From Candidatus Micrarchaeota archaeon (GTDB lineage: Archaea; Micrarchaeota; Micrarchaeia; Norongarragalinales; Norongarragalinaceae): a stretch of 59,325 nt of DNA. The translations under genes were made by a program, and so were the position numbers. Location of the stretch: the NCBI GenBank assembly GCA_016212375.1, contig JACRGH010000052.1, forward strand, positions 1 to 59,325. The letters run 5' to 3'. Positions 2,255 through 49,629 of this stretch are shown one piece after another (the stretch's first letter is position 1; the number at the start of each line of letters is the position of its first letter). Below the pieces are notes generated by a model. That model did not search any database and was not told the origin of the DNA. It saw only the letters and a program-made list of their open reading frames with translations.

Positions 2255-2944
2255 TCATGAAAGCGTTTCCAACTTCTTTTTGATGTCGGACAGACCCAAC
2301 TTGGTCACAGCCAACGGGATGCCTTCGCTTTCCGCGATTTTGACCGCCAATTTATCCACCTTGTCGCCTGGAAGGTCATGCAAAACGACCATGGCCGGCT
2401 TAATTGGCGCCAATCGGACGGCGACCATTGGGCTACGCCCGGTAGAGGTGCCGGTGAACAACAAGGCGCGCTGGCTCGTGGTGCTGTAAATCCGGACGAA
2501 ACTTTCGTACGGCAATTCCAGGATGATTTTAATGGAATCCAAGATGGTCACGCCGTACAGGGGCAATTCATCGACTTTGCGGCTGCAGGCCACGCATTCA
2601 CCCTGGATGGCTTCCAGAAGCTTGCCCCCGGTAATGGATTTTGAAAAGTCAACCGCGTCAAAGAATTTTTGCTCCGGTTCCGCTTCCATAAACCGTTTGA
2701 TGAGCTCGCCGCCGGCTTTCAGGTCTATTTGGAAAAGGGCATCCACGAACCGTCGGATTACACCGATGCCGGGGCTTTTGCGCCGGTTGGACTCGTAATC
2801 GCTGATGGTTGAGGGGGAAATGCCCAAATAGTGGCTCAAATCGCTTTGGGAGATACTGAACACTTCACGCCATTTTTTCATGGCATTGCCCGGATCTGAG
2901 CTTAGGGCAATTTCACCGGCAATTTTGACTTTTAGTTGGTCCAT
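2255..2944 (-). CDS. Archaeal XRE-HTH transcriptional regulator with DRTGG-like C-terminal domain
   Basis: ISQSDLSHYLGISPSTISDYESNRRKSPG HTH; RALLFTGTSTGRSPMVAVR. Start moved to ATG 2944. Confidence 0.85.
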   Translation of the reverse strand: MDQLKVKIAGEIALSSDPGNAMKKWREVFSISQSDLSHYLGISPSTISDYESNRRKSPGIGVIRRFVDALFQIDLKAGGELIKRFMEAEPEQKFFDAVDFSKSITGGKLLEAIQGECVACSRKVDELPLYGVTILDSIKIILELPYESFVRIYSTTSQRALLFTGTSTGRSPMVAVRLAPIKPAMVVLHDLPGDKVDKLAVKIAESEGIPLAVTKLGLSDIKKKLETLS

Positions 2945-3296
2945 GGAAATAGGATATCCACCAAAGCAAATGGGGCGTTCATACGAATAAAAAGCTTTGC
3001 TTCTTGACGAAGGGTAGTTCGGCAGATGGCTATCAAATCCAGTTGCCACGATGCGGCTGACGCCAAAGCACGCCAACAACGATTAGCCAAAAATCCCAAG
3101 GGACCAATAGTCAATGCCTACGTACAAAATAAGGGCCCATTTCCAAAGTTTTCGAAGCGGAGGCGTGCCCGCCCAGCCCAGTATTATATTTAGAGGAGAG
3201 AGGCGGACAAGCGGGAAAACAATCCTGGGTCACAGGATAAAGAAACGCACAAACAAATATAATTATATATACATAGATTAATAGAAATAATAGAAA

Positions 3297-34131: not shown

Positions 34132-34224
34132 ATGACGATGGAAAGCGGAGAGGGTTTTCTTTGGCCTGCGACACGACTTCCAGTCCCAACCCTTGGATTT
34201 GAAAGACCCACTTGGCGCGTTTGA
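34132..34224 (+). other. Zero-frame uORF (MTMESGEGFLWPATRLPVPTLGFERPTWRV) with candidate +1 frameshift site CTT TGG C at 34159..34165
   Basis: SD GAGGA at 34126; ATG 34132/34138; two Trp codons; +1 frame from 34160 is continuous with TrpE. Confidence 0.6.
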
Positions 34225-35542
34225 GTCCCTGTACGACCAATGCCAAAACTGCTTTTTGTTGGAATCGTTTGAGCAGGACGGCACGCTTGGTCGGTTTTCC
34301 TATGTGGGCTTCAACCCCAAAACCACGGTGCAAGTCAAGGACGGCGTCATCCGCGTCGGCACCGAGGAATTGGAACAAGACCCCTTCGCGTTCTTGAAAA
34401 GCTATTGCACCTCAAGCTCCCGACAGGGTTTCCGCGGCGGATTGGTCGGTTACCTCGCACACGATGCCATCCAGTACGTCGAGGATTTCAAGCCAAAGCG
34501 AGGCACCTTTGCAGACATGGAATTCGGCCTTTACCTCGATGGCTTGGTCTTTGACCACCTCAACCACACGGCGCGCTACGTCACATATGGCGAAAATCGC
34601 TTGGACGAATTGCAAAAATTGCTATCCCAGGGAAAAGTTGACCCCACAATAGATCAGAACGCAACCGAACAACCAACGGCCAAACTCTTCGACCCTTTTG
34701 TCAACCAGAACGCATATTGCCAAAGCGTTCTGCAAGCACAGGAGTCCATCCGTGCCGGCGATGCATTCCAAGTGGTCCTATCCCGGAAATTTCCAGTCCG
34801 CATTCGCGGCTCTAAGATGCCATTTTACAAGCGGCTTCGTGCGACGAACCCATCCCCTTACCAATACGTGTTGAAAATGGGCCAGCGGGAAATCATCGGC
34901 TCAAGCCCCGAGATGCTCATCCGGGTGGAAAACAAAAAAGCCACCACGTTTCCCATTGCCGGCACCCGGCCCCGCGGACGCAACCCAGACGAGGACGCCC
35001 GATTGGCGGCCGAACTGAAAGCGGACCCAAAGGAAAACGCGGAACACGCCATGTTAGTGGATTTGGCCCGAAACGACATCGGCCGCGCATCGAAGCCGGG
35101 CACCGTCAAAGTCGAACGTTACGCCGAAATCAAGAAATTCAGCCACGTCCAGCACCTGGTGTCCGAAGTCAGCGGCACCCTGAACGGGACGGCCGCCGAC
35201 GGCTTAAAATCCGTGTTTCCGGCCGGCACCCTATCGGGCGCGCCGAAGCTTTCCGCACTCAAAATCATCGACCGACTTGAACCGCAAGCGCGCGGGCCCT
35301 ATGGCGGTGCCGTGGGATTTTTGTCCCTCGACGGAAGCGGCGATTTTGCCATTTCCATCCGCACGCTGTTTTGCGATGGGGAAGCCGGATTCGTGCAAGC
35401 CGGAGCCGGGATTGTCCAGGATTCCGTTCCGGAAAACGAGTTCCAAGAGACGCAAATCAAAGCACAGGCGTTGTTGGATTGTTTGAAACCGCAAGGAAAA
35501 GACGAAAACGAAAAAACAAAAACGCGAAACGCCAAGTTGTGA
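34132..35542 (+). CDS. trpE: Anthranilate synthase component I (start probably via +1 frameshift; otherwise TTG 34193)
   Basis: LLES; GDAFQVVLS; NPSPY; GSSPE; PIAGTRPRG; EHAMLVDLARND; FPAGTLSGAPK. Confidence 0.93.
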
Positions 35543-35544
35543 AC

Positions 35545-35757
35545 ACCATGGCACCCCGACTCCCCATATTGGACAACTTCGACTCATTCACCTACAACCT
35601 AGTCCAATTATTCCAAACGGTCGCCCCGGGGGAAGCATACCCCCTGGCCCGGCCTGGGCCTCGCCCCCTTCCGTGACGAAAACCATGGCACCCCGACTCC
35701 TCATATTGGACAACTTCGACTCATTCACCTACAACCTAGTCCAGTTATTCCAAACGG
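35545..35757 (+). repeat. 76-bp direct repeat of the trpG 5' end (35545..35620 and 35682..35757)
   Basis: 74/76 identical; separated by a GC-rich hairpin spacer. Confidence 0.9.
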
Positions 35758-36257
35758 CAGGGGCTGAATGCCTCGTATTCCGCAATACCGTTTCGTTCGA
35801 CCAAGTCCTTCGGTTGAAGCCGGACGCCGTCGTGATTTCTCCCGGCCCTGGAACCGTGGAAAATGCCAAAGATTTCGGCGTGTGCGCCCGCGTCATCAAA
35901 GAATTCGAAAAACCGATTTTGGGAGTCTGCTTGGGCCATCAGGGCATCGCCTACGCGTATGGCGCCAAGATCGTGCGGACCACGCCGGTGCATGGAAAAA
36001 CCAGCATCATCACGCACGATGGCACCGGCCTGTTTGCGGGCGTGAAGAATCCGCTCCAAGTGGCCAGATACCACTCTTTAGTCGTAGACCCCGCCTCGGT
36101 GCCGGAAGTCCTGACGGTCACAGCCAAGACTCAAGACGGCCAAATCATGGCACTCCAACACAACGAAAAACCGCAATACGGCGTGCAATTCCATCCCGAA
36201 TCATTTATCACGGAAGATGGAAAGAAAACGGCGGATAATTTCCTGAAACTGATTTGA
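35673..36257 (+). CDS. trpG: Anthranilate synthase component II
   Basis: LDNFDSFTYNL; ISPGPG; GVCLGHQ; RYHSL; GVQFHPES. Confidence 0.95.
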   Translation: MTKTMAPRLLILDNFDSFTYNLVQLFQTAGAECLVFRNTVSFDQVLRLKPDAVVISPGPGTVENAKDFGVCARVIKEFEKPILGVCLGHQGIAYAYGAKIVRTTPVHGKTSIITHDGTGLFAGVKNPLQVARYHSLVVDPASVPEVLTVTAKTQDGQIMALQHNEKPQYGVQFHPESFITEDGKKTADNFLKLI

Positions 36258-36312: not shown

Positions 36313-37308
36313 ATGCAAACCCCACTCACCCGACTCCAAAATAACGCCGATTTGGACGAAAAACAGGCCCAGGAGCTTGCGGACGGTTTCTTTGACGGCA
36401 CGTTGGACGAAGCCCAAATGAAAGAATCATTGCTTGCGCTCAATGCCAAAGGCATTACCGTGGACGAGCTCGTAGGATTTGCCCAAAGCATGCGACAACA
36501 CGGAGTGCATATCCAAACGAAAACGCCGTGCGCCGACACCTGCGGCACCGGCGGCGACGGCCTAAAGACGTTCAACATCTCCACCGCGGCCGCATTTGTG
36601 GTCACGGCATGCGGCGTCTCCGTTGCAAAACACGGGAACCGCTCGGTGTCAAGCCAAACCGGCTCGGCCGACGTCTTGGAAGCATTGGGCGTGCGCGTCA
36701 ACTTACCGCCGGAAAAGACAACGCAGATGATTGATACCGTCGGATTCGGCTTTTTGTTCGCCCCAACCTACCATCCGGCGATGAAGCGCGTAGCACCGGT
36801 GCGAAAAGCATTGGGCGTCAAGACGATTTTCAACATGCTTGGGCCCCTGACGAACCCCGCAAGCGCCGCGTACCAAGTCATCGGCACCTACAACCCCGAA
36901 TGCCAGGACAAAATGGCGCATGCCGTCACACGCGTGGGCATCCGCCGGGCCTTGGTAGTGCACGGCAACGGCATGGATGAAGCGGGTTTTGGCATCAGCC
37001 GCATCTTGGACGTAACCGGTGGAAAAATTGAAGAAAGCAATTTGGATGCCGCCTCGCTGGGCATTACCGGAACGATTACGGATTTGACGGTACGGAATGC
37101 GGCAGAGAGCGCCACCAAAATCCGGAAAGCCTTGAGCTCCGCGGACAAAATGGAGACGCAAATCGTCTGCCTCAACGCGGCATTGGCATTGGTCGCCGCA
37201 GGTAAGGCCAAGGATGCCCATGAAGGCTTTCACCAAGCGCGAAAAGCGGTGAGCACCGGTTGGGCCATGAAAAAACTGCAGGAAAGCGTGGAGGCCGGAC
37301 GCGAATGA
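36313..37308 (+). CDS. trpD: Anthranilate phosphoribosyltransferase
   Basis: DTCGTGGDG; NIST; KHGNRS; GSADVLE; FNMLGPLTNP. Confidence 0.95.
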   Translation: MQTPLTRLQNNADLDEKQAQELADGFFDGTLDEAQMKESLLALNAKGITVDELVGFAQSMRQHGVHIQTKTPCADTCGTGGDGLKTFNISTAAAFVVTACGVSVAKHGNRSVSSQTGSADVLEALGVRVNLPPEKTTQMIDTVGFGFLFAPTYHPAMKRVAPVRKALGVKTIFNMLGPLTNPASAAYQVIGTYNPECQDKMAHAVTRVGIRRALVVHGNGMDEAGFGISRILDVTGGKIEESNLDAASLGITGTITDLTVRNAAESATKIRKALSSADKMETQIVCLNAALALVAAGKAKDAHEGFHQARKAVSTGWAMKKLQESVEAGRE

Positions 37309-38126
37309 ATTTTTTGGACGACGTGTTGGATGGAGTTCGGCAAAGCCTGGTTGACGGCTACTATGAAGTCGGAAAAATGGAACCAGATGCAGAATCGCGA
37401 ACGCAAGGAAAAAAATCACTCAAAACCGAATTGCAACAAAGATTCAGCATTATTGCCGAAATCAAGCCGCGCTCGCCCACCGCCGGAGTGCTGTACCAAG
37501 GCTCAGCCGCGGATTTGGCCAAAACCTATGCCGAAGCGGGAGCAGGCGCATTGAGCGTGTTGTGCGAGTCGAAGCGCTTCAACGGCCGACTTGAAAATCT
37601 GACGGAAGCGAAAACAGCAGCGACGCACTTGCCCGTTTTGGCCAAGGATTTCGTAATTTCGAAAAAACAGCTGCAGGCCTATGCCGCGCATGGCGCAGAT
37701 GCCGCCCTTTTGATTTACGAGCTTTTCGAGCACAAAAAGACCAACGTGCCATTGGAAGCTATGATTGACGCGGCGCACGAATTGGGACTCGAAGTCTTGT
37801 TGGAAGTGCACGGTGCCAAAGACCTGGACGAGGCGCTCAAGAGCAAAGCCGACGTCATCGGCATCAACAACCGGAATTTGGATGATTTGTCGCTCAACAT
37901 GCTTCATTTCCAGAACGTGTTATCGGAAAGCGGCGTGGACATTGAAAAAATAACGGCCGAAGGAAAAGCCCTCATCGCCGAAAGCGGATTTGTTAGCGCC
38001 GCGGACGTGCAGATGGCCCGCGATGTCGGATTGAACGGCATCCTAATTGGCACCGGCCTTCTGAAGAACAAAGACCCCGCCTTCGCATTGAAACAACTCA
38101 CAAAAATAACGAAACAAACGAGGTAA
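37305..38126 (+). CDS. trpC: Indole-3-glycerol phosphate synthase
   Basis: IAEIKPRSP; LSVL; KDF; GINNRNL; AESG. Confidence 0.93.
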
Positions 38127-38134
38127 ACAGCAAA

Positions 38135-39343
38135 ATGACATATTTTGGAGAATTTGGCGGACTGTTTGTTCCGGAAACACTGGTCAGCCCGCTTCAAGCG
38201 ATTTCAGAGGCGTACGAAAATGCCAAAAAAGATCCGGCGTTCCAAAGTGAGTTCCAACGGCTTTTACGCGAGTACGCGGGACGGCCGTCCATGCTGTACT
38301 TTGCAAAAAACCTATCCGTTAAGTACGGCTGCCGCATCTACCTCAAACGGGAGGACTTGCTGCACACCGGCTCGCACAAAATCAACAACGCGTTGGGACA
38401 GGCCTTGCTTGCCAAATCCATGGGCAAAACGCGCGTCATCGCGGAAACCGGTGCGGGACAGCATGGCGTGGCGTGCGCCACGGTCTGCGCCCTGATGGGT
38501 TTGAAATGCGTCGTGTACATGGGCTCGGAAGACGTCATCCGCCAAAACTTGAACGTCCAGCGGATGCGCCTATTGGGCGCCACCGTGGTGCCGGTCGAAT
38601 CCGGAACCAAAACCTTGAAAGATGCCATCAACGAAGCCCTCCGGGACTTCGTGGCGAATCCCGACAGCTATTACCTCATCGGCTCAGCCGTGGGCCCGAC
38701 GCCGTATCCGGAAATGGTGCGGGATTTCCAGCGGGCCATCGGCGATGAGACCAAAGCCCAAATCCTCAAAGCCGAAGGGCGGCTTCCGGACGCCGTGGTG
38801 GCCTGCGTGGGCGGGGGCAGCAATGCGATAGGCATGTTTTATTCGTTCAAAGACGACCAAAGCGTCAAAAAAATCGGCGTGGAAGCATATGGCGCGGCAT
38901 CGTTGGGTTACGGCCAGACGGGCGTGCTGCACGGTGCGAAAACCAAAATTTTGCAGGACAGCGACGGACAAATTTCCGGCACGCACAGTATTTCGGCCGG
39001 ACTGGATTATTCCGCCGTGGGGCCGGAGCATGCTTTTTTCCAATCGGCTGGAATCGCGAAATACGTTTCCGCCAACGACGAGGACGCGCTTTTCGGCTTC
39101 AAGGAACTTTCCCTACAAGAAGGCATCATTCCGGCACTGGAATCGGCACACGCCGTGGCCCATGGCCTCAAAGTGGCCAAAACCATGACCAAAGACCAGA
39201 TTCTCGTCATCAATTTGTCCGGACGCGGAGACAAAGATGCGCATGCATTGGAAGCTCTTGGAAAAGAAAAAGAGCCGTCGGCGTGGGGAAAAAATGAAAT
39301 AACCAAAATAAATGCCAAAACAACGGAGGCGAACAATCAATGA
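38135..39343 (+). CDS. trpB: Tryptophan synthase beta chain (TrpB1)
   Basis: [16 protein letters not shown]; AETGAGQHG; GGGSN; SAGLDY; NLSGRGDKD. Confidence 0.97.
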
Positions 39344-40116
39344 AATTCTCCGAACTTTTCAAAACCAAAAAATTTGCCTTCCTACCATACGTTTGCTTAG
39401 GTTACCCCACACTCGAAAAAAGCCTGGACCTAGTGCGGGCCTTGGAACCGTACGCGGATGGCTTTGAGCTCGGTATCCCTTTTTCCGATCCGGTGGCCGA
39501 CGGACCCGTTCTGCAGAAAGCCGCCCAGAGTGCCCTAGAGGCCGGTTTTAAAGTCAGCCAGACGTTTGACGCGGTGCGGGTGGTCCGCCGGTTCACGCAA
39601 AAACCAATCGCCATCATGACGTACTTGAATCCGGTTTTGGCCCACGGATTACAGCGTTTCGTTGACGAGGCGCATGCCACGGGAGCCGATGCGCTCATCA
39701 TACCGGATGCGCCGATGGAAGAAATCGGACCGGTCCAGGCCGCGTGTGCCGGAAAACTGGAAGTGCCGTTATTTGTCACCCCCACCACGCCGAAAGCGCG
39801 CGCCGGGAAAATCGCCCAAAGCGCACAAGGATTCATCTACGGCATTGCAATCAAAGGCGTCACAGGCGCACGCAAAGAAACCGAAATGGACGGCATGGGT
39901 GCCGACGTCAAGGCATTGGTGGAAAAAACGTCCGACATGGGTTTCCAGATTCCGGTGGTCTTTGGTTTCGGGATTTCAAACGCAAAGCATGCAAAAGCGG
40001 TCCAAAACGCCGGAGCCGCCGGTTTCATCATCGGTAGCCGCATCGTCCAGGCCTACGAGGAAGACGGATTGGAGGGCGTGAAAACATGGGTACAATCGCT
40101 AACCTTAAAAACGTGA
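39340..40116 (+). CDS. trpA: Tryptophan synthase alpha chain
   Basis: [14 protein letters not shown]; MTYLN; GVTG; GFGIS. Confidence 0.95.
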
Positions 40117-40162
40117 ACCGGGAAGTAATTGAAAAGACAACGAAATCAGCGAGTTAGTTCCC

Positions 40163-40228
40163 ATGAACCAACGCAAAAACCAATGGTCGTATCCGACGTT
40201 TGGCTTTAGCTTTGGCTATTACCAATAA
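40163..40228 (+). promoter_or_regulatory. Aromatic-rich leader peptide MNQRKNQWSYPTFGFSFGYYQ
   Basis: 7 of the last 14 sense codons are Trp/Tyr/Phe; sits upstream of DAHP synthase; followed by long stems. Confidence 0.75.
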
Positions 40229-40230
40229 TC

Positions 40231-40321
40231 TTGGGAAAAACCCGCGCAAACTGAAAAAAAGTGTATCAATCGGTTTCAATCTTCGGTTTGCAGCCGCCAG
40301 GCCATTGCGGGTTTCTTCCAA
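40231..40321 (+). promoter_or_regulatory. Long RNA stem-loop directly after the leader stop
   Basis: 40231..40245 pairs with 40307..40321; 40246..40255 pairs with 40282..40291 (one G-U). Confidence 0.6.
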
Positions 40322-40440
40322 AAACAGCAAAGAAATAAGACCAACGGAAAAAATGGGAAAAAAGCAGAAACCATATTGAAAACATCAAAATAAGAGTACA
40401 AAAACTAAAAAAATAATCCGAACGAACAGGTGTTACGACT

Positions 40441-41454
40441 ATGATCATCGTCTTTGAACCGTCCGCGAAACACGAACAAATCCAGCACGTCTTTGACCGC
40501 CTTATCGAATGGGGTTTCAACCCGGTACTTCAAGAAGGGGAAGCCACCAGCATCGCGATTACCGGAGACACGTCCTCGCTGAAGTCCGAGACGCTAGAGG
40601 CCTTTGACGGAGTCCAAAAGGCCGTCCGCCTGACCCAGCCGTACAAACTGGTGGCCCGTGAGTTCAAACCCGAAGGCACCATTATCGACATCGACGGCGT
40701 CAAAATCGGCGGAAAACATTTCACCATGATTGCCGGCCCCTGCAGTGCGGAAAGCGAAGCCCAACTTCTGACCACGGCTCACGCGGTTAAGAACGCGGGC
40801 GGCAAAATCCTGCGCGCCGGCATCTACAAACCCCGCACATCCCCCTACGAATTCCAAGGCATCGGCGAAAAAGGATTGCCCTGGCTAAAAAAAGCAAAAG
40901 AGCAGACGGGATTACCGGTGTGCACAGAAGTGATGGACCCAAAAGTTCTGGACAAAGTCAAGGACGTCGTGGACATCTACCAAGTCGGTGCGCGCAACAT
41001 GCAAAATTATGATTTGTTGCGGGAATTGGGCAAGTCCAAAAAACCGGTATTGCTCAAACGGGGCCTTTCCGCCACGCTCAAGGAATTGTTGTTGGCCGCG
41101 GAATACATCATGTCCTCCGGCAACCATGACGTGATGTTGTGCGAGCGGGGCATCCGCACGTACGAAACGGCCACCCGCTTCACCTTGGACGTCGGCGCCG
41201 TTCCCGTGCTCCGCCACGACACGCACCTGCCCATTATCGTGGACCCATCCCACCCCGCCGGCAAGCGGGCATTGGTCGGGGCATTGGCCAAAGCGGGCTT
41301 GGCAGCGGGTGCCGATGGGCTCATCGTGGAAACGCATCCAGATCCGGAGCGTGCTTGGTCCGACGCGGCGCAACAATTGACGTTCGACCAATTCGGACAA
41401 CTGATGACCGAACTTCGGCCCATTGCCACAGCCGTGGGACGGACGATGGATTGA
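40441..41454 (+). CDS. aroF: DAHP synthase type I-beta with N-terminal regulatory domain
   Basis: IAGPCS; KPRTSPY; GARNMQN; LKRG; CERGIR; DPSH; SD AGGTG. Confidence 0.95.
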   Translation: MIIVFEPSAKHEQIQHVFDRLIEWGFNPVLQEGEATSIAITGDTSSLKSETLEAFDGVQKAVRLTQPYKLVAREFKPEGTIIDIDGVKIGGKHFTMIAGPCSAESEAQLLTTAHAVKNAGGKILRAGIYKPRTSPYEFQGIGEKGLPWLKKAKEQTGLPVCTEVMDPKVLDKVKDVVDIYQVGARNMQNYDLLRELGKSKKPVLLKRGLSATLKELLLAAEYIMSSGNHDVMLCERGIRTYETATRFTLDVGAVPVLRHDTHLPIIVDPSHPAGKRALVGALAKAGLAAGADGLIVETHPDPERAWSDAAQQLTFDQFGQLMTELRPIATAVGRTMD

Positions 41455-43535: not shown

Positions 43536-44405
43536 ATGATTACCGCCAAAACCCATATCGTCGCGCTCATCGGCGAGCCGGTCAAACACAGCCTTTCACC
43601 CGCCATGCATAACGCGGCATTTGCCCAACTGGGTTTGGATTGGGCCTACGTGGCGCTTTCCGTCAAAACCCAAAACTTGGCGCAAGCGGTTGCCGGAATG
43701 AAAGCCCTGAACTTCCAAGGGTTCAACGCCACCATGCCGCACAAGCAAGCATTGGTGCATTTGGTCGATGAGTTGGACCCGTTTGCCAAGTTCTGCCAAG
43801 CGGTCAACACCGTATCCGTCCGCAACGGCAAGCTGTTGGGGTTCAACACCGACGGGCCGGGAACGCTCAACGCACTCAAAGAAGCCAAAGCGGACCTAAG
43901 CCACGTCGTCATCCTGGGCGCGGGTGGCACCGGCTCGGCCATGGCCCTGGCATTGGCGCAGGCCGGCTCCGAGGTCGTCATCCTGAACCGAGACGTGAAA
44001 AAAGCCGAGGGCTTGGCCCACAAAATTGGAAAGACCGGTGACGTTTTGATCGAAGCGGGAAGCCTGGATGAAGCCGCCGACCGCATCCGTGAAGCGACAG
44101 TGTTGTGCAACGCCACGTCCGTTGGCATGCGAACCAACGAAACGCCCATTTCCAAAAATGCGTTGCATCCCGGATTGACCATAATGGACGCCGTGTATGC
44201 ACCGCGCCTTACGCGCCTCATCAAAGACGCAAAAGGCGTGGGCGCCCACGTCGTCACCGGAGACCGCATGTTGTTGCACCAGGGCATGATTGCATTTGAG
44301 CGCTGGACCGGCGGCAAGGCGCCAAAAACGGCGATGGAAAACGCGCTTGAACATGCATTCAGCATCTTGGAAACAAACGGTCAGAACGGTTCGGTGAACA
44401 CATGA
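43536..44405 (+). CDS. aroE: Shikimate dehydrogenase
   Basis: HSLSP; NATMPHK; AVNT; NTD; GAGG; MLLHQG. Confidence 0.95.
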   Translation: MITAKTHIVALIGEPVKHSLSPAMHNAAFAQLGLDWAYVALSVKTQNLAQAVAGMKALNFQGFNATMPHKQALVHLVDELDPFAKFCQAVNTVSVRNGKLLGFNTDGPGTLNALKEAKADLSHVVILGAGGTGSAMALALAQAGSEVVILNRDVKKAEGLAHKIGKTGDVLIEAGSLDEAADRIREATVLCNATSVGMRTNETPISKNALHPGLTIMDAVYAPRLTRLIKDAKGVGAHVVTGDRMLLHQGMIAFERWTGGKAPKTAMENALEHAFSILETNGQNGSVNT

Positions 44406-46255
44406 ACATCCTTTTGATCGGCATCATGGGCTCCGGCAAGACCACCGTAGGATATGCATTGGCCGAAAGCCGGCAGATGGCGTTCGTGGATCTGGACCGC
44501 GAATTGGAAAACGTGGAAGGCCGGACCATTTCCGAAATTTTCAAAACCGACGGCGAGGATGCGTTCCGTGAAAAAGAATCGGCGTTGCTTCTGAAGTGGG
44601 CGGAACAACAGTTGGACAACACGGTCATTTCCACTGGCGGAGGCATCGTTCTAAGCGAGGTCAACCTCCAGCTGATTAAGAAAATGGGCCGGACGGTATG
44701 GCTGGACGTATCCGCGGAAGTGGCCCACCAGCGCACGCAACACGAACCAAACCGCCCCCTGCTCAATCATCCGGAGCGCGCCGAAATCCTGAGGGTCCTG
44801 ATACGGCGGCGAAGAGAATTGTATGAACAGGCTGAAGTGCACGTCCAAGTGGACGATAAATCCGTGGACAAAATCGTGGATGAAATCAACGACCGCCTGA
44901 GGCAAACCGCCAAATCCGCGCTTCGGAGCCGGGTCTTATCCGCCATCGGCCAACTGGAAGGCAAGTCCATGCGGATTGAACCATCAGCCCTTCAAGGGTC
45001 GCTCAAAGTCCCGCCGTCCAAAAGCATGACACACCGTGCCCTGATTTGCGCGGCGCTTTCCAAAAAGCCGTGCCGCGTGAGCAATGCATTGGTCTCCGAT
45101 GACACCTTGGCCACGGCCAGTGCGCTCAAAGTCTTGGGCACACGATTTGAAGGCGACGTGCTTGACGGAACCGAAATTTTCACCATCGGAGGAACGCTGT
45201 CCTGTGGCGAATCCGGCTCCACCCTGCGATTCATGCTTCCATTGGCATGCCTCGGACAGACACGAAACGTCCTGATGGGCCACGGACGCTTATTGCAAAG
45301 GCCCATCCAGCCGCTGGCCGATGCGTTGAACCAATTGGGCGGCCACGTGGAAACGGCGGAAGGACTGGCGCCGGTCAACACCACCCCCGGCTTAAGCGGT
45401 AGCACATGCACCCTACCCGGAAACATCAGCTCGCAATTCGTGTCCGGCCTTTTGATGGCCTTGCCGTTGTGTCCAAAGCCGAGCCAAATCCAGTTGGAAG
45501 GATCGTTGGAATCGGCGCCGTATGTGGACGTGACGTTGGACGTGATGGCGCACTTCGGCGTTCACGTGGATGTCCAACGCAATGAACACCAACAAATGAC
45601 CGGTTTTTCCATTGCCCCCCAATCGTATCAACCCCACGACATCACCGTGCCGTCGGATTGGTCCAGCGCCGCCTTTTGGCTCGTGGCCGGATGCATCGGG
45701 AATCACAAAGAGGGAACCTCAAAAAGGTCAGGTGGTTCAAACGGCATCACCATTGAATCTATCCAGCCGGACCGCCAAGCAGATGCCGCGATTGTGCCGA
45801 TATTGCAGAAAATGGGGGGAAAAATAACCATCCAAAGCCAGAGCAAAACCGTGCGGGCGCACGCCTCCGACTTGGTTGGAATTGACATCGACGTCTCGGA
45901 TTGCCCGGATTTGGTGCCCATTTTGGCGGTAGCCGGCTGCTTTGCTGCAGGCATCACACGATTGACCAATGCAGCCCGACTGCGATTGAAAGAAAGCGAC
46001 CGCCTGTCCGCGATGGCAACCGAGTTGCAAAAAATGGGAGCCCGTATCGAGGAAAAGCCCGATGCGCTCATTATCCATCAAAGCGCGCTTTCCGGCGCCA
46101 CCTTATCCAGTCACAACGACCACCGCATCGCCATGGCATTGAGTATTGCCGCAACAAATGCCACCGGCCAGTCGGTCATCGACAACGCGGACTGCGTCGC
46201 GAAATCCTATCCGGCGTTTTTCAACGATTTGCAAGTCCTGGGGGAAAAGACATGA
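44402..46255 (+). CDS. aroK-aroA: Fusion of P-loop (bacterial-type) shikimate kinase and EPSP synthase
   Basis: GIMGSGKTT, GEDAFR, TGGG, RPLL; then PPSKS, ESGSTLR, SSQFVS, RLKESDR, DHR, KSYP. Confidence 0.93.
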   Translation: MNILLIGIMGSGKTTVGYALAESRQMAFVDLDRELENVEGRTISEIFKTDGEDAFREKESALLLKWAEQQLDNTVISTGGGIVLSEVNLQLIKKMGRTVWLDVSAEVAHQRTQHEPNRPLLNHPERAEILRVLIRRRRELYEQAEVHVQVDDKSVDKIVDEINDRLRQTAKSALRSRVLSAIGQLEGKSMRIEPSALQGSLKVPPSKSMTHRALICAALSKKPCRVSNALVSDDTLATASALKVLGTRFEGDVLDGTEIFTIGGTLSCGESGSTLRFMLPLACLGQTRNVLMGHGRLLQRPIQPLADALNQLGGHVETAEGLAPVNTTPGLSGSTCTLPGNISSQFVSGLLMALPLCPKPSQIQLEGSLESAPYVDVTLDVMAHFGVHVDVQRNEHQQMTGFSIAPQSYQPHDITVPSDWSSAAFWLVAGCIGNHKEGTSKRSGGSNGITIESIQPDRQADAAIVPILQKMGGKITIQSQSKTVRAHASDLVGIDIDVSDCPDLVPILAVAGCFAAGITRLTNAARLRLKESDRLSAMATELQKMGARIEEKPDALIIHQSALSGATLSSHNDHRIAMALSIAATNATGQSVIDNADCVAKSYPAFFNDLQVLGEKT

Positions 46256-47365: not shown

Positions 47366-48595
47366 ATGGCGGAAGCAAAAATGCCAAAGCAGGAAAAAAA
47401 GAAGGACAACAAAATGGAAAAAGTCGACAACGACGGCCTTGACGCCACGCGCCAGCAAATCGACTCCATTGATGAGCAAATCACCAAACTGTTAGCGCAA
47501 CGCATGGACCTGGCCATAAAGACACGCCGGGAAAAAGAACGCAGCGGAAAAAGCGTCGAAGACTCAAGCCGGGAAAAAAACGTATTACAACACGTGGAAG
47601 CCGTAGCGAAATCCGAAGGCCTGGACGGCGCCGTCGTATTGCGCGTGTTCGAGGAAATCATGGCCGCAAGCAAGTCGCAGCAAATCATGGACCACGCCCC
47701 CGCGCATGCCGCCACCAATCAGATGCAACCCAAAACCATCGCATTCCAAGGGGAGCGGGGCGCATACAGCGAAGAAGCCTTGAAAGCGGCGTGGCCGAAC
47801 GCGCAACCGGTGCCCTGCAAGGAATTCGCCGACGTATTCGAGGCGGTGCAATCCGGAACGGTGGACGCAGGCTTGGTGCCGATTGAAAACAGCACCGAAG
47901 GCAGCATCAACTGGACCTACGACTTGCTTCTCAACTCCCAACTCACTATTGCGGGAGAAAAATTCCTCCGGGTGCACCATTACTTATTGGCCCCCGCCGG
48001 CACTCAGCTCCAAGCCGGACTAAACGTCTACTCACACCCCCAAGCCTTGGCGCAATGCCGGGATTTTTTGCACGACAAAGGCCTGCAAGCGGTGCAATAC
48101 TATGACACGGCAGGTGCGGCTCGTGATTTGGCCCAAGGAAAAATCGAAACCACCACACCGACCGCGCAAGACAAAAACAAAGGACAAACCGGCGGTGCGC
48201 CATTTGCCGCGGCCATCGCCTCTCGCATTGCTGCCGAACACTACGGCTTAACCGTCATCGCCGAAGGCATCGAGGACAACCGCAACAACTACACTCGGTT
48301 CATCCTGATTTCAAAGACGGCCCCGACACCGCAGGCCGATTTCAAGACGTCCATCGTCTTTTCGACCCAGCACAAACCCGGCGCCCTTTTTCGCGTGCTG
48401 AAGGCATTCGCTGACGCCGGAATAAACCTCACAAAACTGGAATCCCGCCCGACCAAGTCCACGCCTTGGGAATACGTCTTCTACCTGGACTTTGAAGGTT
48501 CGGCGTTCCACGACCCCGCCCGCACGGTACTGGAACAAATCAAGCCGGACACCCTGATGCTCAAGGTGCTGGGAAGTTACCCGAAGGCGAAGTGA
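47366..48595 (+). CDS. pheA: Chorismate mutase / prephenate dehydratase (P-protein)
   Basis: RQQIDSID (AroQ); PIENS; SHPQALAQC; NYTRF; ACT domain LTKLESRP. Confidence 0.95.
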   Translation: MAEAKMPKQEKKKDNKMEKVDNDGLDATRQQIDSIDEQITKLLAQRMDLAIKTRREKERSGKSVEDSSREKNVLQHVEAVAKSEGLDGAVVLRVFEEIMAASKSQQIMDHAPAHAATNQMQPKTIAFQGERGAYSEEALKAAWPNAQPVPCKEFADVFEAVQSGTVDAGLVPIENSTEGSINWTYDLLLNSQLTIAGEKFLRVHHYLLAPAGTQLQAGLNVYSHPQALAQCRDFLHDKGLQAVQYYDTAGAARDLAQGKIETTTPTAQDKNKGQTGGAPFAAAIASRIAAEHYGLTVIAEGIEDNRNNYTRFILISKTAPTPQADFKTSIVFSTQHKPGALFRVLKAFADAGINLTKLESRPTKSTPWEYVFYLDFEGSAFHDPARTVLEQIKPDTLMLKVLGSYPKAK

Positions 48596-48687
48596 ACCCG
48601 GTTTACCCAACGCCGCATCTGCGTCAACACCGCATGCGTAGGTATCGGATAGAATCAATTATTAACTATCCGATACAACAAGTAGTC

Positions 48688-49629
48688 ATGACGGAATCGC
48701 GCATCGGAAATGAGTTGCTCGAAAGGATTGAAAAGAAGCAAAAAAACCTCCGAAGCTTGCGTCCGTTCAACCAAGGCGCCTTGCTGAAGCTGCAGGAAAG
48801 CTTCCGCGTCTCTTTGACATACAACTCGAACGCCCTCGAGGGCAATTCGCTTTCCTTGAATGAAACCAAACTCGTGCTGGAGGAAGGCATCACCATAGGC
48901 GGAAAGACGCTCAAGGAACATCTGGAAGCGACGAACCATGCCAAAGCGATGGAATTAATCGACGGCCTGGTAAAAAAAGCCCATATCGATGAAATAGACG
49001 TCCTTGAGCTTCACGCGTTGATTTTGGACCGGATTGATCCGCAGAACGCCGGCGTCTACCGGAAAGGGTCCGTACGGATCAGCGGGACGGATTACACTCC
49101 GCCGAACGCCGCGAAGGTCCCGGCATTGATGGGCGACGTTTACCGCAGGCTCAACCAGAAAAACAGGCACGCGCAAGACATCATCAAATCGGCCGCGTCC
49201 ATCCACCAACGGTTCGTCGATATCCACCCGTTCATTGATGGCAATGGCCGCACCGCCCGCCTTCTTTTGAACCTACATCTCATGCGCTCGGAGTACCCGC
49301 CCGTCATCATCCTGCGTACGGAGCGCCAAAAATACATTCACACCATCATCGAGGAACAAGTCGGCCAAAACCCGGCGCCGTTTGCCAACTTCGTCGCGTC
49401 ATGCGTGGACCGATCACTCACGATTTATTTGGATGCGTTGGGCACGGAAGCCAAAGAATACCTGGGCTTGACGGAGGCGGCTAAAATTTCAAAGAACGGA
49501 TACGGCGCCGAATACTTGGGGTTCCTTGCAAGAGAGGGCAAAATCGGAGCGGTCAAATTCGGCCGTAACTGGAAGATATCAAAAGAAGCCCTGGAGGAAT
49601 ACGAAACGGAGCAAGCACCGAAAAAGTGA
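48688..49629 (+). CDS. Fic protein (class II, autoinhibited) with C-terminal HTH
   Basis: SNALEGN inhibitory motif; HPFIDGNGRTAR; C-terminal GKIGAVKFGRNW. Confidence 0.9.
   Translation: MTESRIGNELLERIEKKQKNLRSLRPFNQGALLKLQESFRVSLTYNSNALEGNSLSLNETKLVLEEGITIGGKTLKEHLEATNHAKAMELIDGLVKKAHIDEIDVLELHALILDRIDPQNAGVYRKGSVRISGTDYTPPNAAKVPALMGDVYRRLNQKNRHAQDIIKSAASIHQRFVDIHPFIDGNGRTARLLLNLHLMRSEYPPVIILRTERQKYIHTIIEEQVGQNPAPFANFVASCVDRSLTIYLDALGTEAKEYLGLTEAAKISKNGYGAEYLGFLAREGKIGAVKFGRNWKISKEALEEYETEQAPKK

What the first reader, a model, noticed from the sequence alone, without database searches (positions are those of the whole stretch)
40119..40440. Trp/Tyr/Phe-rich leader peptide with alternative RNA stems ahead of the aro genes
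Seen: 40163..40228 encodes MNQRKNQWSYPTFGFSFGYYQ (1 W, 3 F, 3 Y), naming all three end products of the downstream pathway. There is a stem before the ATG (GGGAA/TTCCC), a hairpin in the ORF (CCAA..GTCG/CGAC..TTGG), several interchangeable CCAA/TTGG motifs, and a long stem at 40231..40321. No U-tract follows; the next 120 nt are A-rich. Established: such peptides define bacterial attenuators, while ribosome-mediated attenuation is not well established in archaea. Inference: a sensor for all three aromatics with a non-classical output, e.g. factor-dependent (FttA/aCPSF1) termination, RNA cleavage or translational control.
Basis: partly seen in the sequence, partly recalled or inferred. Interest (0 to 1): 0.85.

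Follow-up and report, generated by a model that had tools for sequence, protein, structure and literature searches.

The report
Aromatic leader peptide before archaeal aroF
A tiny gene packed with codons for the three aromatic amino acids sits just ahead of the genes that make those amino acids in this small archaeon and in many of its relatives, and it looks like the amino-acid-sensing 'leader peptide' switches of bacteria, a kind of control I could not find described for archaea.

Summary
Window 40163-40228 encodes MNQRKNQWSYPTFGFSFGYYQ, followed by a very stable hairpin at 40231-40321. It lies between trpA and a DAHP synthase (aroF) operon of a Micrarchaeota (DPANN) genome.

On its own the ORF is not unusual, but it is conserved. 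Equivalent Phe/Tyr/Trp-rich ORFs of 17-33 codons precede DAHP synthase in 16 of 22 archaeal loci, against 2 of 57 bacterial loci, and in further Micrarchaeota genera. The same core motif also precedes four aspartokinase/ADH-synthase/DHQ-synthase-II operons, which I read as the non-homologous archaeal entry to the same pathway. A Woesearchaeota-type version shows coding-type third-position variation.

Shared anatomy:
- a hairpin enclosing the ORF;
- a second hairpin that starts -3 to +4 nt from the stop codon in 21 of 23 lineages, with an A-rich 5' arm and a U-rich 3' arm.

A classical antiterminator pairing was tested and not found.

Best reading: a ribosome-sensing leader for aromatic amino acid supply with a non-classical output, probably masking of a U-rich termination signal. 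The mechanism is inferred. Six of nine literature searches sought an archaeal precedent and found none.

The parts
40104..40111 (+). TATA-like box (CTTAAAAA) inside the last codons of trpA. I infer it is the promoter of the leader transcript.
   Evidence: Matching boxes (TTTAAAAA, TTTAATAA, CTTAAAAG) lie 47-59 nt before the leader ATG in the five closest sequences. The box is invariant between the window and L095. Its function is inferred.
40151..40162 (+). Conserved block just before the leader ATG (GAGTTAGTTCCC; GGGTTAG(C/T/A)T(C/T)CC in four close relatives). It contains only a weak Shine-Dalgarno-like AGG/GGG.
   Evidence: The 16S 3' end of this genome reads ..GGTTAGATCACCTCCT. More distant Micrarchaeota leaders carry GTGGTT or GTGATT 7-9 nt before the ATG.
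40163..40228 (+). Leader ORF of 21 codons, MNQRKNQWSYPTFGFSFGYYQ*. Aromatic codons are W8, Y10, F13, F15, F17, Y19 and Y20.
   Evidence: Conserved counterparts appear.
40168..40215 (+). Hairpin P1 inside the leader ORF. The N-terminal codons pair with the Phe/Gly/Ser codons.
   Evidence: window z -2.3; all but one of 23 leaders give a negative z. In one search the duplex test gave mean z -1.72, with 12 of 23 lineages having at most 5% of shuffles as good. The window itself is weak in that test (z -1.0).
40205..40219 (+). Core motif TTTAGCTTTGGCTAT (F-S-F-G-Y), the most conserved part of the leader.
   Evidence: It is unique in the genome. The pattern TTYAGCTTTRGCTAT hits 35 of 401 genomes of the phylum, against 7 hits of the reversed control pattern. 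Of the 35, 22 lie upstream of DAHP synthase (coordinates) and 4 upstream of aspartokinase aro operons.
40231..40321 (+). Hairpin P2, which starts 2 nt after the stop codon. The outer helix is GGGAAAAACCCGC / GCGGGTTTCTTCC, the inner helix GCAAAC / GTTTGC, with a small side hairpin.
   Evidence: -35.4 kcal/mol, z -4.56. One search gives a consensus of 5 close sequences with 24 pairs, 3 of which have changes on both sides. One search shows the position next to the stop codon is conserved in 21 of 23 lineages.
40288..40302 (+). Nearly invariant junction sequence TTGCAGCCGCCAGGC within P2.
   Evidence: invariant columns among the 5 close sequences; unique in the genome. Its role is unknown.
40309..40321 (+). 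U/C-rich 3' strand of P2 (GCGGGTTTCTTCC). I take it as a candidate termination or cleavage signal that P2 hides.
   Evidence: Relatives have T4-T7 here. Across 23 lineages P2 has 76 A(5')-U(3') pairs against 22 U(5')-A(3') pairs. In the window a ribosome at the stop codon opens only this basal part.
40322..40425 (+). A-rich spacer (61% A). Its sequence is not conserved, but its composition is.
   Evidence: In G002 and L096 this position holds a second, short DAHP synthase gene. In G001 and G009 it holds short leftover ORFs.
40428..40432 (+). Shine-Dalgarno sequence AGGTG of aroF.
   Evidence: Read. It is complementary to the 16S 3' end seen.
40441..41454 (+). aroF: DAHP synthase with an N-terminal ferredoxin-like domain. 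It is the first gene of aroF-aroB-aroD-aroE-aroK/aroA-aroC-pheA.

Best explanation
The 21-codon ORF is a translated leader peptide that acts as a cis-regulatory sensor for the aromatic amino acid operon that follows. It belongs to a family of Phe/Tyr/Trp-rich leaders that precede the first genes of the shikimate pathway in DPANN archaea.

**Shown**
- The leader is conserved, and it is linked to two non-homologous pathway entries.
- The leader ORF is enclosed in a hairpin (P1).
- A second hairpin (P2) abuts the stop codon, with an A-rich 5' arm and a U-rich 3' arm.

**Inferred mechanism**
- A ribosome that starts on the nascent transcript slows or stops at Phe, Tyr or Trp codons when the charged tRNAs are scarce. 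It then sits too far upstream to touch P2, so P2 folds and buries the U-rich strand. Transcription and use of the mRNA go on into aroF.
- When the aromatic amino acids are plentiful, the ribosome runs to the stop codon and covers the 5' arm of P2. The U-rich strand stays single-stranded, and the transcript is terminated or cut there, most likely with the help of FttA/aCPSF1.
- P1, which pairs the start region with the aromatic codons, would limit leader translation to the first ribosome, the one coupled to transcription.

In the window itself P2 is unusually long, so a ribosome at the stop codon would open only its basal A:U/C pairs.
For: **Close relatives.** The leader is kept with aroF in G001, G002, G009, L095 and L096. 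In G001 it is not next to trpA, so it travels with aroF.

**Wider family.**
- 16 of 22 archaeal DAHP synthase loci have an upstream ORF with at least 5 aromatics in its last 10 residues, against 2 of 57 bacterial loci. The reverse-strand controls give 2 of 22 and 2 of 57.
- 16 of 27 further loci of the phylum show the same.
- There are 45 distinct leaders. 26 contain F, Y and W together, and all 27 that contain W have exactly one.

**Link to the pathway.**
- The core 15-mer occurs in 35 of 401 genomes, against 7 control hits.
- 22 of these lie upstream of DAHP synthase.
- 4 lie upstream of operons of aspartokinase, aspartate-semialdehyde dehydrogenase (in two), DeoC-type aldolase and, in three, DHQ synthase II.

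**Coding signal.** In 12 versions of the Woesearchaeota-type leader, the variable columns by codon position are 8/5/18 and 9 codons vary only synonymously. The flanks are flat at 18/18/19 and 12/13/14.

**Geometry.**
- The first hairpin starts -3 to +4 nt from the stop in 21 of 23 Micrarchaeota lineages and in 21 of 23 other DPANN leaders.
- With an energy filter the count is 20 of 23, against 10.5 expected from shuffles.
- With a ribosome at the stop codon the pair probability of P2 is at most 0.36 in 18 of 23 lineages. With a ribosome at the first aromatic codon of the run it is at least 0.7 in 18 of 23.
- Arm asymmetry: 76 A-U pairs against 22 U-A pairs, with the bias seen in 20 of 23 lineages.

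**Termination factor.** FttA/aCPSF1 is encoded in the genome (TIGR03675, 823 bits, cut-off 580). Passages of PMC8716108 state that archaeal terminators are U-tracts without a required hairpin, and that the KH domains of aCPSF1 bind U-tracts.

**Conservation between the window and L095** is high from the TATA-like box through P2 and drops in the spacer.
Against: - There are no expression, ribosome or 3'-end data. Translation of the window's ORF is not shown, and its Shine-Dalgarno match is weak.
- The classical test fails. No ribosome position abolishes P2 in the window (0.88 at every aromatic codon, 0.84 at the stop). Pairing between the aromatic codons and the 5' half of P2 is no better than shuffles (mean z -0.02; 3 of 23 at 5%; window -5.0 against -7.2 kcal/mol).
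- If P2 plus its U-rich strand worked as a bacterial-type intrinsic terminator, the geometry would give the wrong sign: termination under starvation. The proposed sign therefore rests on an untested idea, that pairing hides the U-tract.
- The window's U-run is only TTTCTT. U-runs of 4 or more occur in 11 of 23 lineages and of 5 or more in 6 of 23.
- Accessibility of the Shine-Dalgarno region of the downstream gene does not change consistently with ribosome position.
- In the Micrarchaeota set the variable columns by codon position are flat (18/21/20). The core is conserved at the nucleotide level (Ser is AGC in 18 of 23), so RNA-level constraint is strong.
- The Woesearchaeota-type peptide is conserved beyond its aromatic residues. 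A pure codon-counting leader does not need that.
- A promoter in the 104-nt A-rich spacer cannot be excluded.
Confidence: 0.6

Rival explanations
1. A nascent-peptide (arrest-peptide) sensor. The leader peptide in the exit tunnel, together with free aromatic amino acid, would hold the ribosome at or near the stop codon, as TnaC does with tryptophan in E. coli (recalled). The held ribosome would keep the 5' arm of P2 covered. The sensed signal would be excess free amino acid, not a lack of charged tRNA.
For: - The Woesearchaeota-type leader is conserved along its whole 24 residues under coding-type selection, including non-aromatic positions.
- The Micrarchaeota leaders share an ordered core F-S-F-[G/S]-Y rather than a plain run of aromatics.
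- The hairpin abuts the stop codon in 21 of 23 lineages, so a long stay at the stop codon would have the largest effect.
- It would solve the problem that a normal ribosome leaves a stop codon quickly.
Against: - Leaders of different clades share aromatic content but not sequence. That fits codon sensing better.
- The nucleotide-level conservation of the core, and its pairing with the start region, can explain the ordered motif without a peptide function.
Confidence: 0.12
2. An independent small-protein gene with its own promoter, ribosome-binding site and terminator (P2). Its aromatic-rich product would act in trans and merely be a neighbour of the aro genes.
For: - A TATA-like box 47-59 nt upstream, Shine-Dalgarno-like GTGGTT/GGGTTAG motifs, and a hairpin with a U-rich 3' arm straight after the stop make a complete small transcription unit.
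- There is coding-type selection in the Woesearchaeota-type version.
Against: - The ORF is always co-oriented and directly upstream of the first gene of the aromatic pathway, in two non-homologous operon types.
- Content in F, Y and W, not sequence, is what distant clades share.
- The same architecture (promoter, short ORF, terminator-like hairpin) is what a leader/attenuator looks like.
- The motif is single-copy in the genome.
Confidence: 0.12
3. A structured RNA element (two hairpins) bound by a protein or a small ligand, with the open reading frame incidental.
For: - Nucleotide-level conservation of AGCTTTRGCTAT and of TTGCAGCCG(G/C)C(A/G)GGC.
- P1 and P2 are supported family-wide.
- There is no codon-position periodicity in the Micrarchaeota set.
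Against: - An ATG (one GTG) at a fixed place, an open frame of 17-33 codons, and a stop within 0-2 sense codons of the last aromatic codon are kept in all 23 Micrarchaeota leaders.
- The Woesearchaeota-type leaders lack the RNA motif but keep the aromatic ORF, and they show third-position variation.
- There is no Rfam match at gathering score or at E up to 10 beyond two chance-level hits.
- No TRAP homologue was found, in a genome that is 82% complete.
Confidence: 0.08
4. A chance ORF, with P2 being simply the terminator of the trp operon upstream.
For: - The element lies directly after trpA in the window and in L095.
- Within this one genome, spurious small ORFs with as many aromatics exist.
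Against: - In G001 two opposite-strand genes separate trpA from the leader, yet leader and hairpin stay with aroF.
- The family is found ahead of DAHP synthase or aspartokinase operons in dozens of genomes.
Confidence: 0.02

Closest known systems
Classical ribosome-mediated attenuators of bacterial amino acid operons (E. coli trpL, pheL, hisL). The model is recalled; trpL and pheL are also described in passages of PMC11802643.
   Same: - A short ORF ahead of a biosynthetic operon, rich in codons for the end product.
- A hairpin with a U-rich 3' side between leader and first gene.
- The regulatory codons sit a few codons before the stop.
- A ribosome at the stop codon reaches the next RNA segment, while one stalled at the regulatory codons does not.
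   Different: - No mutually exclusive antiterminator pairing was found.
- The aromatic codons lie in the 3' strand of a hairpin that encloses the leader's own start.
- The segment a ribosome at the stop covers is the 5' arm of the only hairpin next to the U-rich strand. A bacterial-type reading would therefore give the wrong sign.
- The host is an archaeon, whose terminators are U-tracts without a required hairpin and use FttA/aCPSF1 (PMC8716108 passages).
Corynebacterium glutamicum aroR leader upstream of aroF (Neshat et al. 2014, as described in passages of the review PMC11802643; the original paper was not seen).
   Same: A leader peptide with mixed aromatic residues (Phe-Tyr-Phe) ahead of the operon that contains the DAHP synthase gene. 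It is said to raise transcription when ribosomes stall at Phe and Tyr codons.
   Different: - It is a bacterial attenuator. Sequence relationship was not tested here.
- The archaeal leaders usually add one Trp and have the P1/P2 anatomy described above.
- The bacterial relatives of this aroF gene lack such leaders (2 of 57), so the archaeal family was not simply imported with the gene.
tnaC-type control in E. coli, where a ribosome held at the stop codon hides a termination-factor entry site (recalled, no call).
   Same: The ribosome's position at the leader's stop codon decides whether a termination factor can reach the RNA next to it.
   Different: In tna the held ribosome prevents termination. 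Here a ribosome at the stop would expose the U-rich strand and favour termination. The factor would be FttA/aCPSF1 instead of Rho. All of this is inference.
Cysteine-rich leaderless short ORFs of mycobacteria (bioRxiv 10.1101/834739; only the search listing and the start of the abstract were seen).
   Same: Short upstream ORFs enriched in one kind of codon that tune downstream operon genes according to amino acid supply.
   Different: They are bacterial and leaderless. Details of that mechanism were not read here.
Archaeal U-tract plus aCPSF1/FttA termination (PMC8716108 passages; PMC11616081 listing only).
   Same: U-rich RNA is the signal, and the factor is encoded in this genome.
   Different: In the passages I read, nothing describes control of such a terminator by a leader peptide or by pairing of the U-tract.

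Membership tests
Leader-peptide (ribosome-mediated) attenuator | Short ORF upstream of, and co-oriented with, an amino acid biosynthetic operon | tested here: met
   The ORF at 40163-40228 lies 212 nt before aroF.
Leader-peptide (ribosome-mediated) attenuator | Enrichment of codons for the pathway's end products near the end of the ORF, conserved in relatives | tested here: met
   7 of 21 codons in the window are aromatic. 16 of 22 archaeal loci against 2 of 57 bacterial loci, with reverse-strand controls of 2 of 22 and 2 of 57. 45 distinct leaders.
Leader-peptide (ribosome-mediated) attenuator | Terminator (hairpin followed by a U-run) between the leader and the first gene | tested here: inconclusive
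   The hairpin is strong, but the U-run in the window is TTTCTT and lies inside the stem. A simple terminator scan did not flag it. Relatives have T4-T7. Archaeal terminators follow different rules.
Leader-peptide (ribosome-mediated) attenuator | Alternative antiterminator pairing selected by a ribosome stalled at the regulatory codons | tested here: not met
   Masked folds: P2 stays at 0.88 at every aromatic codon. The duplex test of the free aromatic segment against the 5' half of P2 gave mean z -0.02, with 3 of 23 at 5%.
Leader-peptide (ribosome-mediated) attenuator | Ribosome position changes a downstream RNA structure | tested here: met
   A ribosome at the stop lowers the P2 pair probability to at most 0.36 in 18 of 23 lineages. 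In the window only the basal pairs open: 0.87 to 0.68, and 0.88 to 0.84.
Leader-peptide (ribosome-mediated) attenuator | Leader is translated, and expression responds to charged tRNA | not testable with these tools
   The only indirect evidence is coding-type variation in the Woesearchaeota-type leaders.
Rfam leader and riboswitch families (Phe_leader, Trp_leader, T-box and others) | Match to a curated covariance model | tested here: not met
   No match at gathering score in the window except one tRNA. At E up to 10 over 40050-40480 there are two chance-level hits only.
TRAP-type protein-mediated attenuation | Presence of the TRAP (TrpBP, PF02081) protein | tested here: not met
   0 matches in the genome, which is 82% complete. 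The control rings in B. subtilis.
Translational attenuation by sequestering the downstream ribosome-binding site | Accessibility of the downstream Shine-Dalgarno/start region depends on ribosome position in the leader | tested here: not met
   16 lineages were tested. The change is inconsistent: the window gives 0.53, 0.36 and 0.42, and accessibility drops clearly in only 4 (L177, L180, L181, L188).

The most novel reading that the evidence does not exclude
This would be the first family of ribosome-sensing leader peptides in Archaea: a portable cassette of promoter, aromatic leader ORF folded on itself, and a stop-abutting hairpin. It controls both the bacterial-type (DAHP synthase) and the archaeal-type (aspartokinase / ADH synthase / DHQ synthase II) entries to the shikimate pathway in DPANN archaea. 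Its logic would be inverted relative to bacteria. The hairpin is protective because it buries the U-tract that FttA/aCPSF1 needs, and a ribosome that reaches the stop codon exposes that tract.
Probability: 0.3. Interest if true: 0.9.

Novelty: new variant of a known kind. Interest (0 to 1): 0.85.

Why it matters
Leader-peptide attenuation is a textbook bacterial mechanism that depends on coupled transcription and translation. Archaea also couple the two (recalled), but six full-text searches for an archaeal case found none. The phrases 'attenuation in archaea', 'archaeal attenuator', 'archaeal leader peptide' and 'attenuators in archaea' gave 0 papers. 'Archaeal uORF', 'uORFs in archaea' and 'leader peptides in archaea' gave 0 occurrences in the 15 papers listed.

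If this family works as proposed:
- It shows that tiny, host-associated archaea regulate a costly pathway with a cis-acting translation sensor.
- It provides a natural system to study how ribosomes, RNA structure and FttA-type termination interact.
- It supplies a sequence signature, an aromatic leader plus a stop-abutting hairpin, that marks operons for aromatic amino acid synthesis in unannotated DPANN genomes.

Tried and rejected
**Tests that led nowhere or were negative**
- Classical 1:2/2:3/3:4 attenuator. Tested by ribosome-masked folding and by a duplex test with shuffles. Not supported.
- Hiding of the aroF ribosome-binding site. Tested in 16 lineages. No consistent effect.
- Other leader peptides in the same genome (His, Trp, Leu, Ile/Val, Thr and others). 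A crude scan of 1493 small intergenic ORFs showed none that was obvious. No Trp-rich ORF was seen in the 84 nt ahead of trpE.
- A second small ORF starting right after P2 and overlapping the start of the main gene. It is seen in some lineages (L183 and L177; G001 has one with its own Shine-Dalgarno sequence) but not in the window, so I dropped it as a general feature.
- Promoter in the A-rich spacer. The spacer sequence is not conserved between the window and L095, but with only two sequences this is not decisive.
- The sigma-70 promoter scan is not relevant to an archaeon.
- Codon-position test on the Micrarchaeota leaders. Flat (18/21/20) and therefore uninformative.
- G315 has a leader-like ORF ahead of ORFs with no Pfam or NCBIfam match. 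Left unexplained.
- Loci without a leader. In L008, L176, L178 and L190 the DAHP synthase gene follows another same-strand ORF closely, so a leader, if present, would lie beyond the fetched DNA. L191 has only 51 nt upstream.
- Public sequencing runs: no RNA holder listed (one DNA run, which may be the source sample).

**Tools and sources not used or not available**
- The protein-database searches, structure prediction and complex prediction were not used, because the leader is shorter than their limits.
- Supplementary files of papers were not consulted. Those of Neshat 2014 and of PMC8716108 could bear on the comparison.
Full report
**Context**

The window is a contig of an archaeal metagenome-assembled genome of 1.34 Mb in 75 contigs, 82% complete. 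Its SSU rRNA scores 1431 bits with the archaeal model against 1103 bits with the bacterial model. The closest public genomes are titled Candidatus Micrarchaeota, from groundwater.

Around the finding lies an aromatic amino acid cluster on the + strand:
- trpE 34193-35542, trpG 35673-36257, trpD 36313-37308, trpC 37260-38126, trpB 38135-39343, trpA 39340-40116;
- a 324-nt gap;
- aroF 40441-41454 (DAHP synthase with a ferredoxin-like N-terminal domain), aroB, aroD, aroE, a fused shikimate kinase/EPSP synthase (44402-46255), chorismate synthase, and chorismate mutase/prephenate dehydratase (47366-48595);
- further on, an aminotransferase and a prephenate dehydrogenase.

**Observation**

- The ORF at 40163-40228 reads MNQRKNQWSYPTFGFSFGYYQ*.
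- A hairpin inside it (P1, 40168-40215) and a long hairpin straight after it (P2, 40231-40321) are present. P2 folds at -35.4 kcal/mol with z -4.56, and 0 of 200 shuffles fold as well.
- The next 104 nt are 61% A.
- P2 ends in GGGTTTCTTCC. Three close relatives have GGGTTTTTCCC, CGGTTTTTCCCC or GGGTTTTCC there. 'No U-tract' is therefore true only in the narrow sense that no U-run follows the stem.
- Taken alone in this genome the ORF is not remarkable. Among 1493 small intergenic ORFs, several spurious ones have more aromatics per 8 residues.

**Close relatives**

The DAHP synthase protein finds 3 close genomes among 40 relatives (G001 and G002 in the same genus, G009 in the same family) and 2 close metagenome contigs (L095, L096). 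All five carry a counterpart of the leader:

| Source | Leader peptide |
|---|---|
| G001 | MTEVKANQQNWSFGFSFGYFG |
| G002 | MNQARLNRTYRAFWFSFGYFG |
| G009 | MAGTEARWNFGYSFSFGY |
| L095 | MNQSKTKQPQWSFSFSFGYYQ |
| L096 | MNRSKTTQYWTPGFSFGYFG |

- In G001 two opposite-strand genes lie between trpA and the leader, so the leader goes with aroF and not with trpA.
- In G002 and L096 a second, short DAHP synthase gene sits between the leader and aroF.
- In G001 and G009 only short ORFs remain at that place. In the window and L095 there is an A-rich spacer instead.
- Between the window and L095, identity is high from a TATA-like box through the leader and P2, and then falls in the spacer.

**Wider family**

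- I scanned 450 nt upstream of the gene in 172 loci. 51 have a small ORF with at least 5 aromatics in a 10-residue window.
- Among the 80 species-representative loci (one, L046, has too little upstream DNA), 16 of 22 loci with archaeal titles have an ORF with at least 5 aromatics in its last 10 residues. A 17th, L015, has the leader ahead of the paralogue. The archaeal titles are Micrarchaeota, Woesearchaeota, Nanoarchaeota and some bins labelled Methanosarcinales.
- Only 2 of 57 bacterial loci pass the same test. The reverse strand gives 2 of 22 and 2 of 57. The archaeal leaders were therefore not simply imported with the bacterial-like gene.
- A phylum-wide search of 401 genomes found DAHP synthase in 69. 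It gave 20 new loci. Together with the 7 earlier same-order loci, 16 of 27 pass the same test.
- Of those without a leader, four have the gene inside an operon and one has only 51 nt of upstream DNA.
- In all I collected 45 distinct leaders of 17-33 residues. 26 contain F, Y and W together. All 27 that contain W have exactly one.
- The Woesearchaeota type (…IGFAFYRLFSSFKYFFFYFKF) has no W. Its 12 nucleotide versions vary at codon positions 1/2/3 in 8/5/18 columns, and 9 codons vary only synonymously. The flanks are flat at 18/18/19 and 12/13/14. That is the pattern of a translated sequence.
- The Micrarchaeota set is too divergent for this test (18/21/20). Its core is conserved at the nucleotide level as TTY AGC TTT RGC TAT.

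**An independent link to the pathway**

The 15-mer TTYAGCTTTRGCTAT is unique in the genome (one search used the 12-nt core). It occurs once each in 35 of 401 genomes of the phylum, against 7 hits of the reversed control pattern. The 35 hits break down as follows:
- By comparing coordinates, 22 hits lie 30-360 nt upstream of a DAHP synthase gene on the same strand.
- Four hits (G138, G287, G282, G398) lie in leader-like ORFs, for example MNAEPKSKNFFYGFSFSYYFWF. These ORFs sit ahead of an aspartokinase with ACT domains.
  - In two of the four an aspartate-semialdehyde dehydrogenase follows the kinase.
  - In all four a DeoC-type aldolase follows.
  - In three a 3-dehydroquinate synthase II follows.
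  - In two a dehydroquinase follows.
  - From memory (White 2004, not seen here), the aldolase and DHQ synthase II are the archaeal route from aspartate semialdehyde into the shikimate pathway.
- One hit (G315) is leader-like but precedes ORFs with no family match.
- Six hits look like chance matches, and two were not fetched.

The same leader ahead of two non-homologous first steps of one pathway is the strongest argument that it is tied to aromatic amino acid synthesis.

**Anatomy shared by the family**

- *Promoter-like box.* A TATA-like box lies 47-59 nt before the ATG in the close group, and similar boxes occur elsewhere.
- *Ribosome-binding site.* A Shine-Dalgarno-like GTGGTT or GTGATT lies 7-9 nt before the ATG in many lineages. 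The close group has only GGGTTAG, which is weak. The 16S 3' end of this genome reads ..GGTTAGATCACCTCCT.
- *P1.* The N-terminal codons, often including the ATG, pair with the F-S-F-G-Y codons. For example, Ala-Lys-Ala codons (GCU AAA GCU) pair with AGC UUU AGC.
  - All but one of 23 leaders fold with a negative z, and I calculate the mean as about -2.0.
  - A duplex test gives mean z -1.72, with 12 of 23 lineages having at most 5% of shuffles as good. The window is weak in this test (z -1.0).
- *P2.* The first hairpin after the leader starts -3 to +4 nt from the end of the stop codon.
  - This holds in 21 of 23 Micrarchaeota lineages and in 21 of 23 other DPANN leaders.
  - With an energy filter the count is 20 of 23, against 10.5 expected from shuffles.
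  - Its A:U pairs are oriented A on the 5' arm and U on the 3' arm in 76 pairs against 22, a bias seen in 20 of 23 lineages.
  - A U-run of at least 4 lies in or just after the 3' arm in 11 of 23 lineages, and of at least 5 in 6 of 23.
  - Among the five closest sequences RNAalifold predicts 24 pairs. Three of them have changes on both sides, and a junction sequence TTGCAGCCG is invariant.

**Tests of mechanism**

- *Window, masked folds.* I masked a 28-nt ribosome footprint at each aromatic codon. P2 stays formed (0.88). At the stop codon only the basal A:U/C pairs open (0.84).
- *Family, masked folds.* A ribosome at the first aromatic codon of the run leaves P2 at 0.7 or more in 18 of 23 lineages. 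A ribosome at the stop codon lowers it to 0.36 or less in 18 of 23, and to 0.0 in 11.
- *Antiterminator pairing.* Pairing between the part of the leader left free by a stalled ribosome and the 5' half of P2 is no better than shuffles (mean z -0.02; 3 of 23 at 5%).
- *Downstream ribosome-binding site.* Its accessibility does not change consistently.

The conserved logic is therefore this. Ribosomes delayed at aromatic codons let P2 fold, and ribosomes that reach the stop codon prevent it. Both hairpins can refold after the ribosome leaves, so a lasting effect needs a decision taken during transcription (inference).

If P2 with its U-rich strand were a bacterial-type terminator, starvation would shut the operon off, which makes no sense for a biosynthetic pathway. 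I therefore propose that P2 protects. It buries the U-rich strand, which in archaea is the termination signal and the binding site of aCPSF1/FttA (passages of PMC8716108). The factor is encoded here.

This step is inference. The window's own U-run is weak, and its P2 is only partly opened by a ribosome at the stop.

**Rivals**

- A nascent-peptide sensor of free amino acid. It is favoured by the whole-peptide conservation of the Woesearchaeota type.
- A free-standing small-protein gene.
- A protein- or ligand-binding RNA with an incidental ORF.
- A chance ORF plus the trp operon terminator, which and the family data contradict.

**Comparison with what is known**

- There is no Rfam match.
- No TRAP protein was found.
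- The closest functional analogue I found in print is the Corynebacterium glutamicum aroR leader (Phe-Tyr-Phe) ahead of aroF (passages of review PMC11802643).
- Searches for leader peptides, attenuation or uORFs in archaea or DPANN found nothing relevant. The one DPANN hit with 'leader peptide' concerns bacteriocin-type signal sequences.
- The library holds open-access papers and bioRxiv only, so a report elsewhere cannot be excluded.

**Verdict**

The core of the interpretation, a conserved aromatic leader tied to the aro genes with a non-classical output, is supported by comparative evidence. The proposed alternative stems are not supported. The mechanism remains a hypothesis. I file it as a new variant of a known kind: leader-peptide control, here in Archaea and with a different architecture.

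Noticed in passing
L231 (G138), L232 (G282), L233 (G398), L234 (G287): In four Micrarchaeota genomes with no DAHP synthase hit, the same aromatic leader and stop-abutting hairpin precede an operon of aspartokinase (ACT domains), aspartate-semialdehyde dehydrogenase (in two), DeoC-type aldolase, DHQ synthase II (in three) and later shikimate-pathway genes. This suggests that a dedicated aspartokinase feeds the archaeal aromatic pathway.
   Followed up: partly
L014 1459-2256 (G002); L096; L005 1430-1501 (G001); L006 (G009): G002 and L096 have a second, short DAHP synthase (no ferredoxin-like domain) between the leader and aroF. G001 keeps only a 14-codon ORF with a strong Shine-Dalgarno sequence that overlaps the aroF GTG start. 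G009 has a 20-codon ORF that repeats the first codons of aroF. The window and L095 have an A-rich spacer there. This looks like stepwise loss of the gene the leader originally served.
   Followed up: partly
window 40322-40425: The spacer is 61% A, the most A-rich 104 nt of the window. Its composition, but not its sequence, is shared with L095. It contains copies of GGGAAAAAAG/GGAAAAAA that resemble the 5' arm of P2. Its role is unknown.
   Followed up: partly
L018-L035 and L097-L110 (Woesearchaeota-type loci): This is a distinct leader class, MAQIGFAFYRLFSSFKYFFFYFK[FYH]. It has 8-9 Phe, 2-4 Tyr and no Trp, and is conserved along its whole length with mostly synonymous variation. It is followed by a hairpin GATTAGC..GCTAATC that overlaps the TGA stop. 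Its Phe codons themselves form a T7 run.
   Followed up: partly
window 44402-46255: A bacterial-type shikimate kinase (SKI) is fused to EPSP synthase in one 617-residue ORF. In G138 (L231 451-2352) dehydroquinase, shikimate dehydrogenase and shikimate kinase are fused instead.
   Followed up: no
window 48592-49629: A Fic/DOC-family gene with a helix-turn-helix tail sits inside the aromatic cluster, directly after the chorismate mutase/prephenate dehydratase gene and overlapping its end.
   Followed up: no
window 40151-40162 and L001 about 1500-1520 (16S 3' end): The conserved block before the leader ATG (GGGTTAGTTCCC in relatives) resembles, in the same sense, the unusual 3' end of this organism's 16S rRNA (GGTTAGATCACC). 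It may be coincidence.
   Followed up: no
L235 174-188 (G315): A leader-like ORF (MNRNERNGWNPSGAFSFSYFYFGRC) with a strong downstream hairpin precedes ORFs of 93, 519 and 320 residues that have no Pfam or NCBIfam match.
   Followed up: partly
L006 about 2671-3033, minus strand (G009): A direct duplication of about 220 nt lies upstream of the leader. It gives two copies of an ORF that starts MSNLPRKKAKNRAMHKKVHFPLKMPTKLTGY.
   Followed up: no
window 40288-40302: TTGCAGCCGCCAGGC in the junction of P2 is nearly invariant among the five closest sequences, more than pairing alone requires. It is unique in the genome and could be a recognition site.
   Followed up: partly
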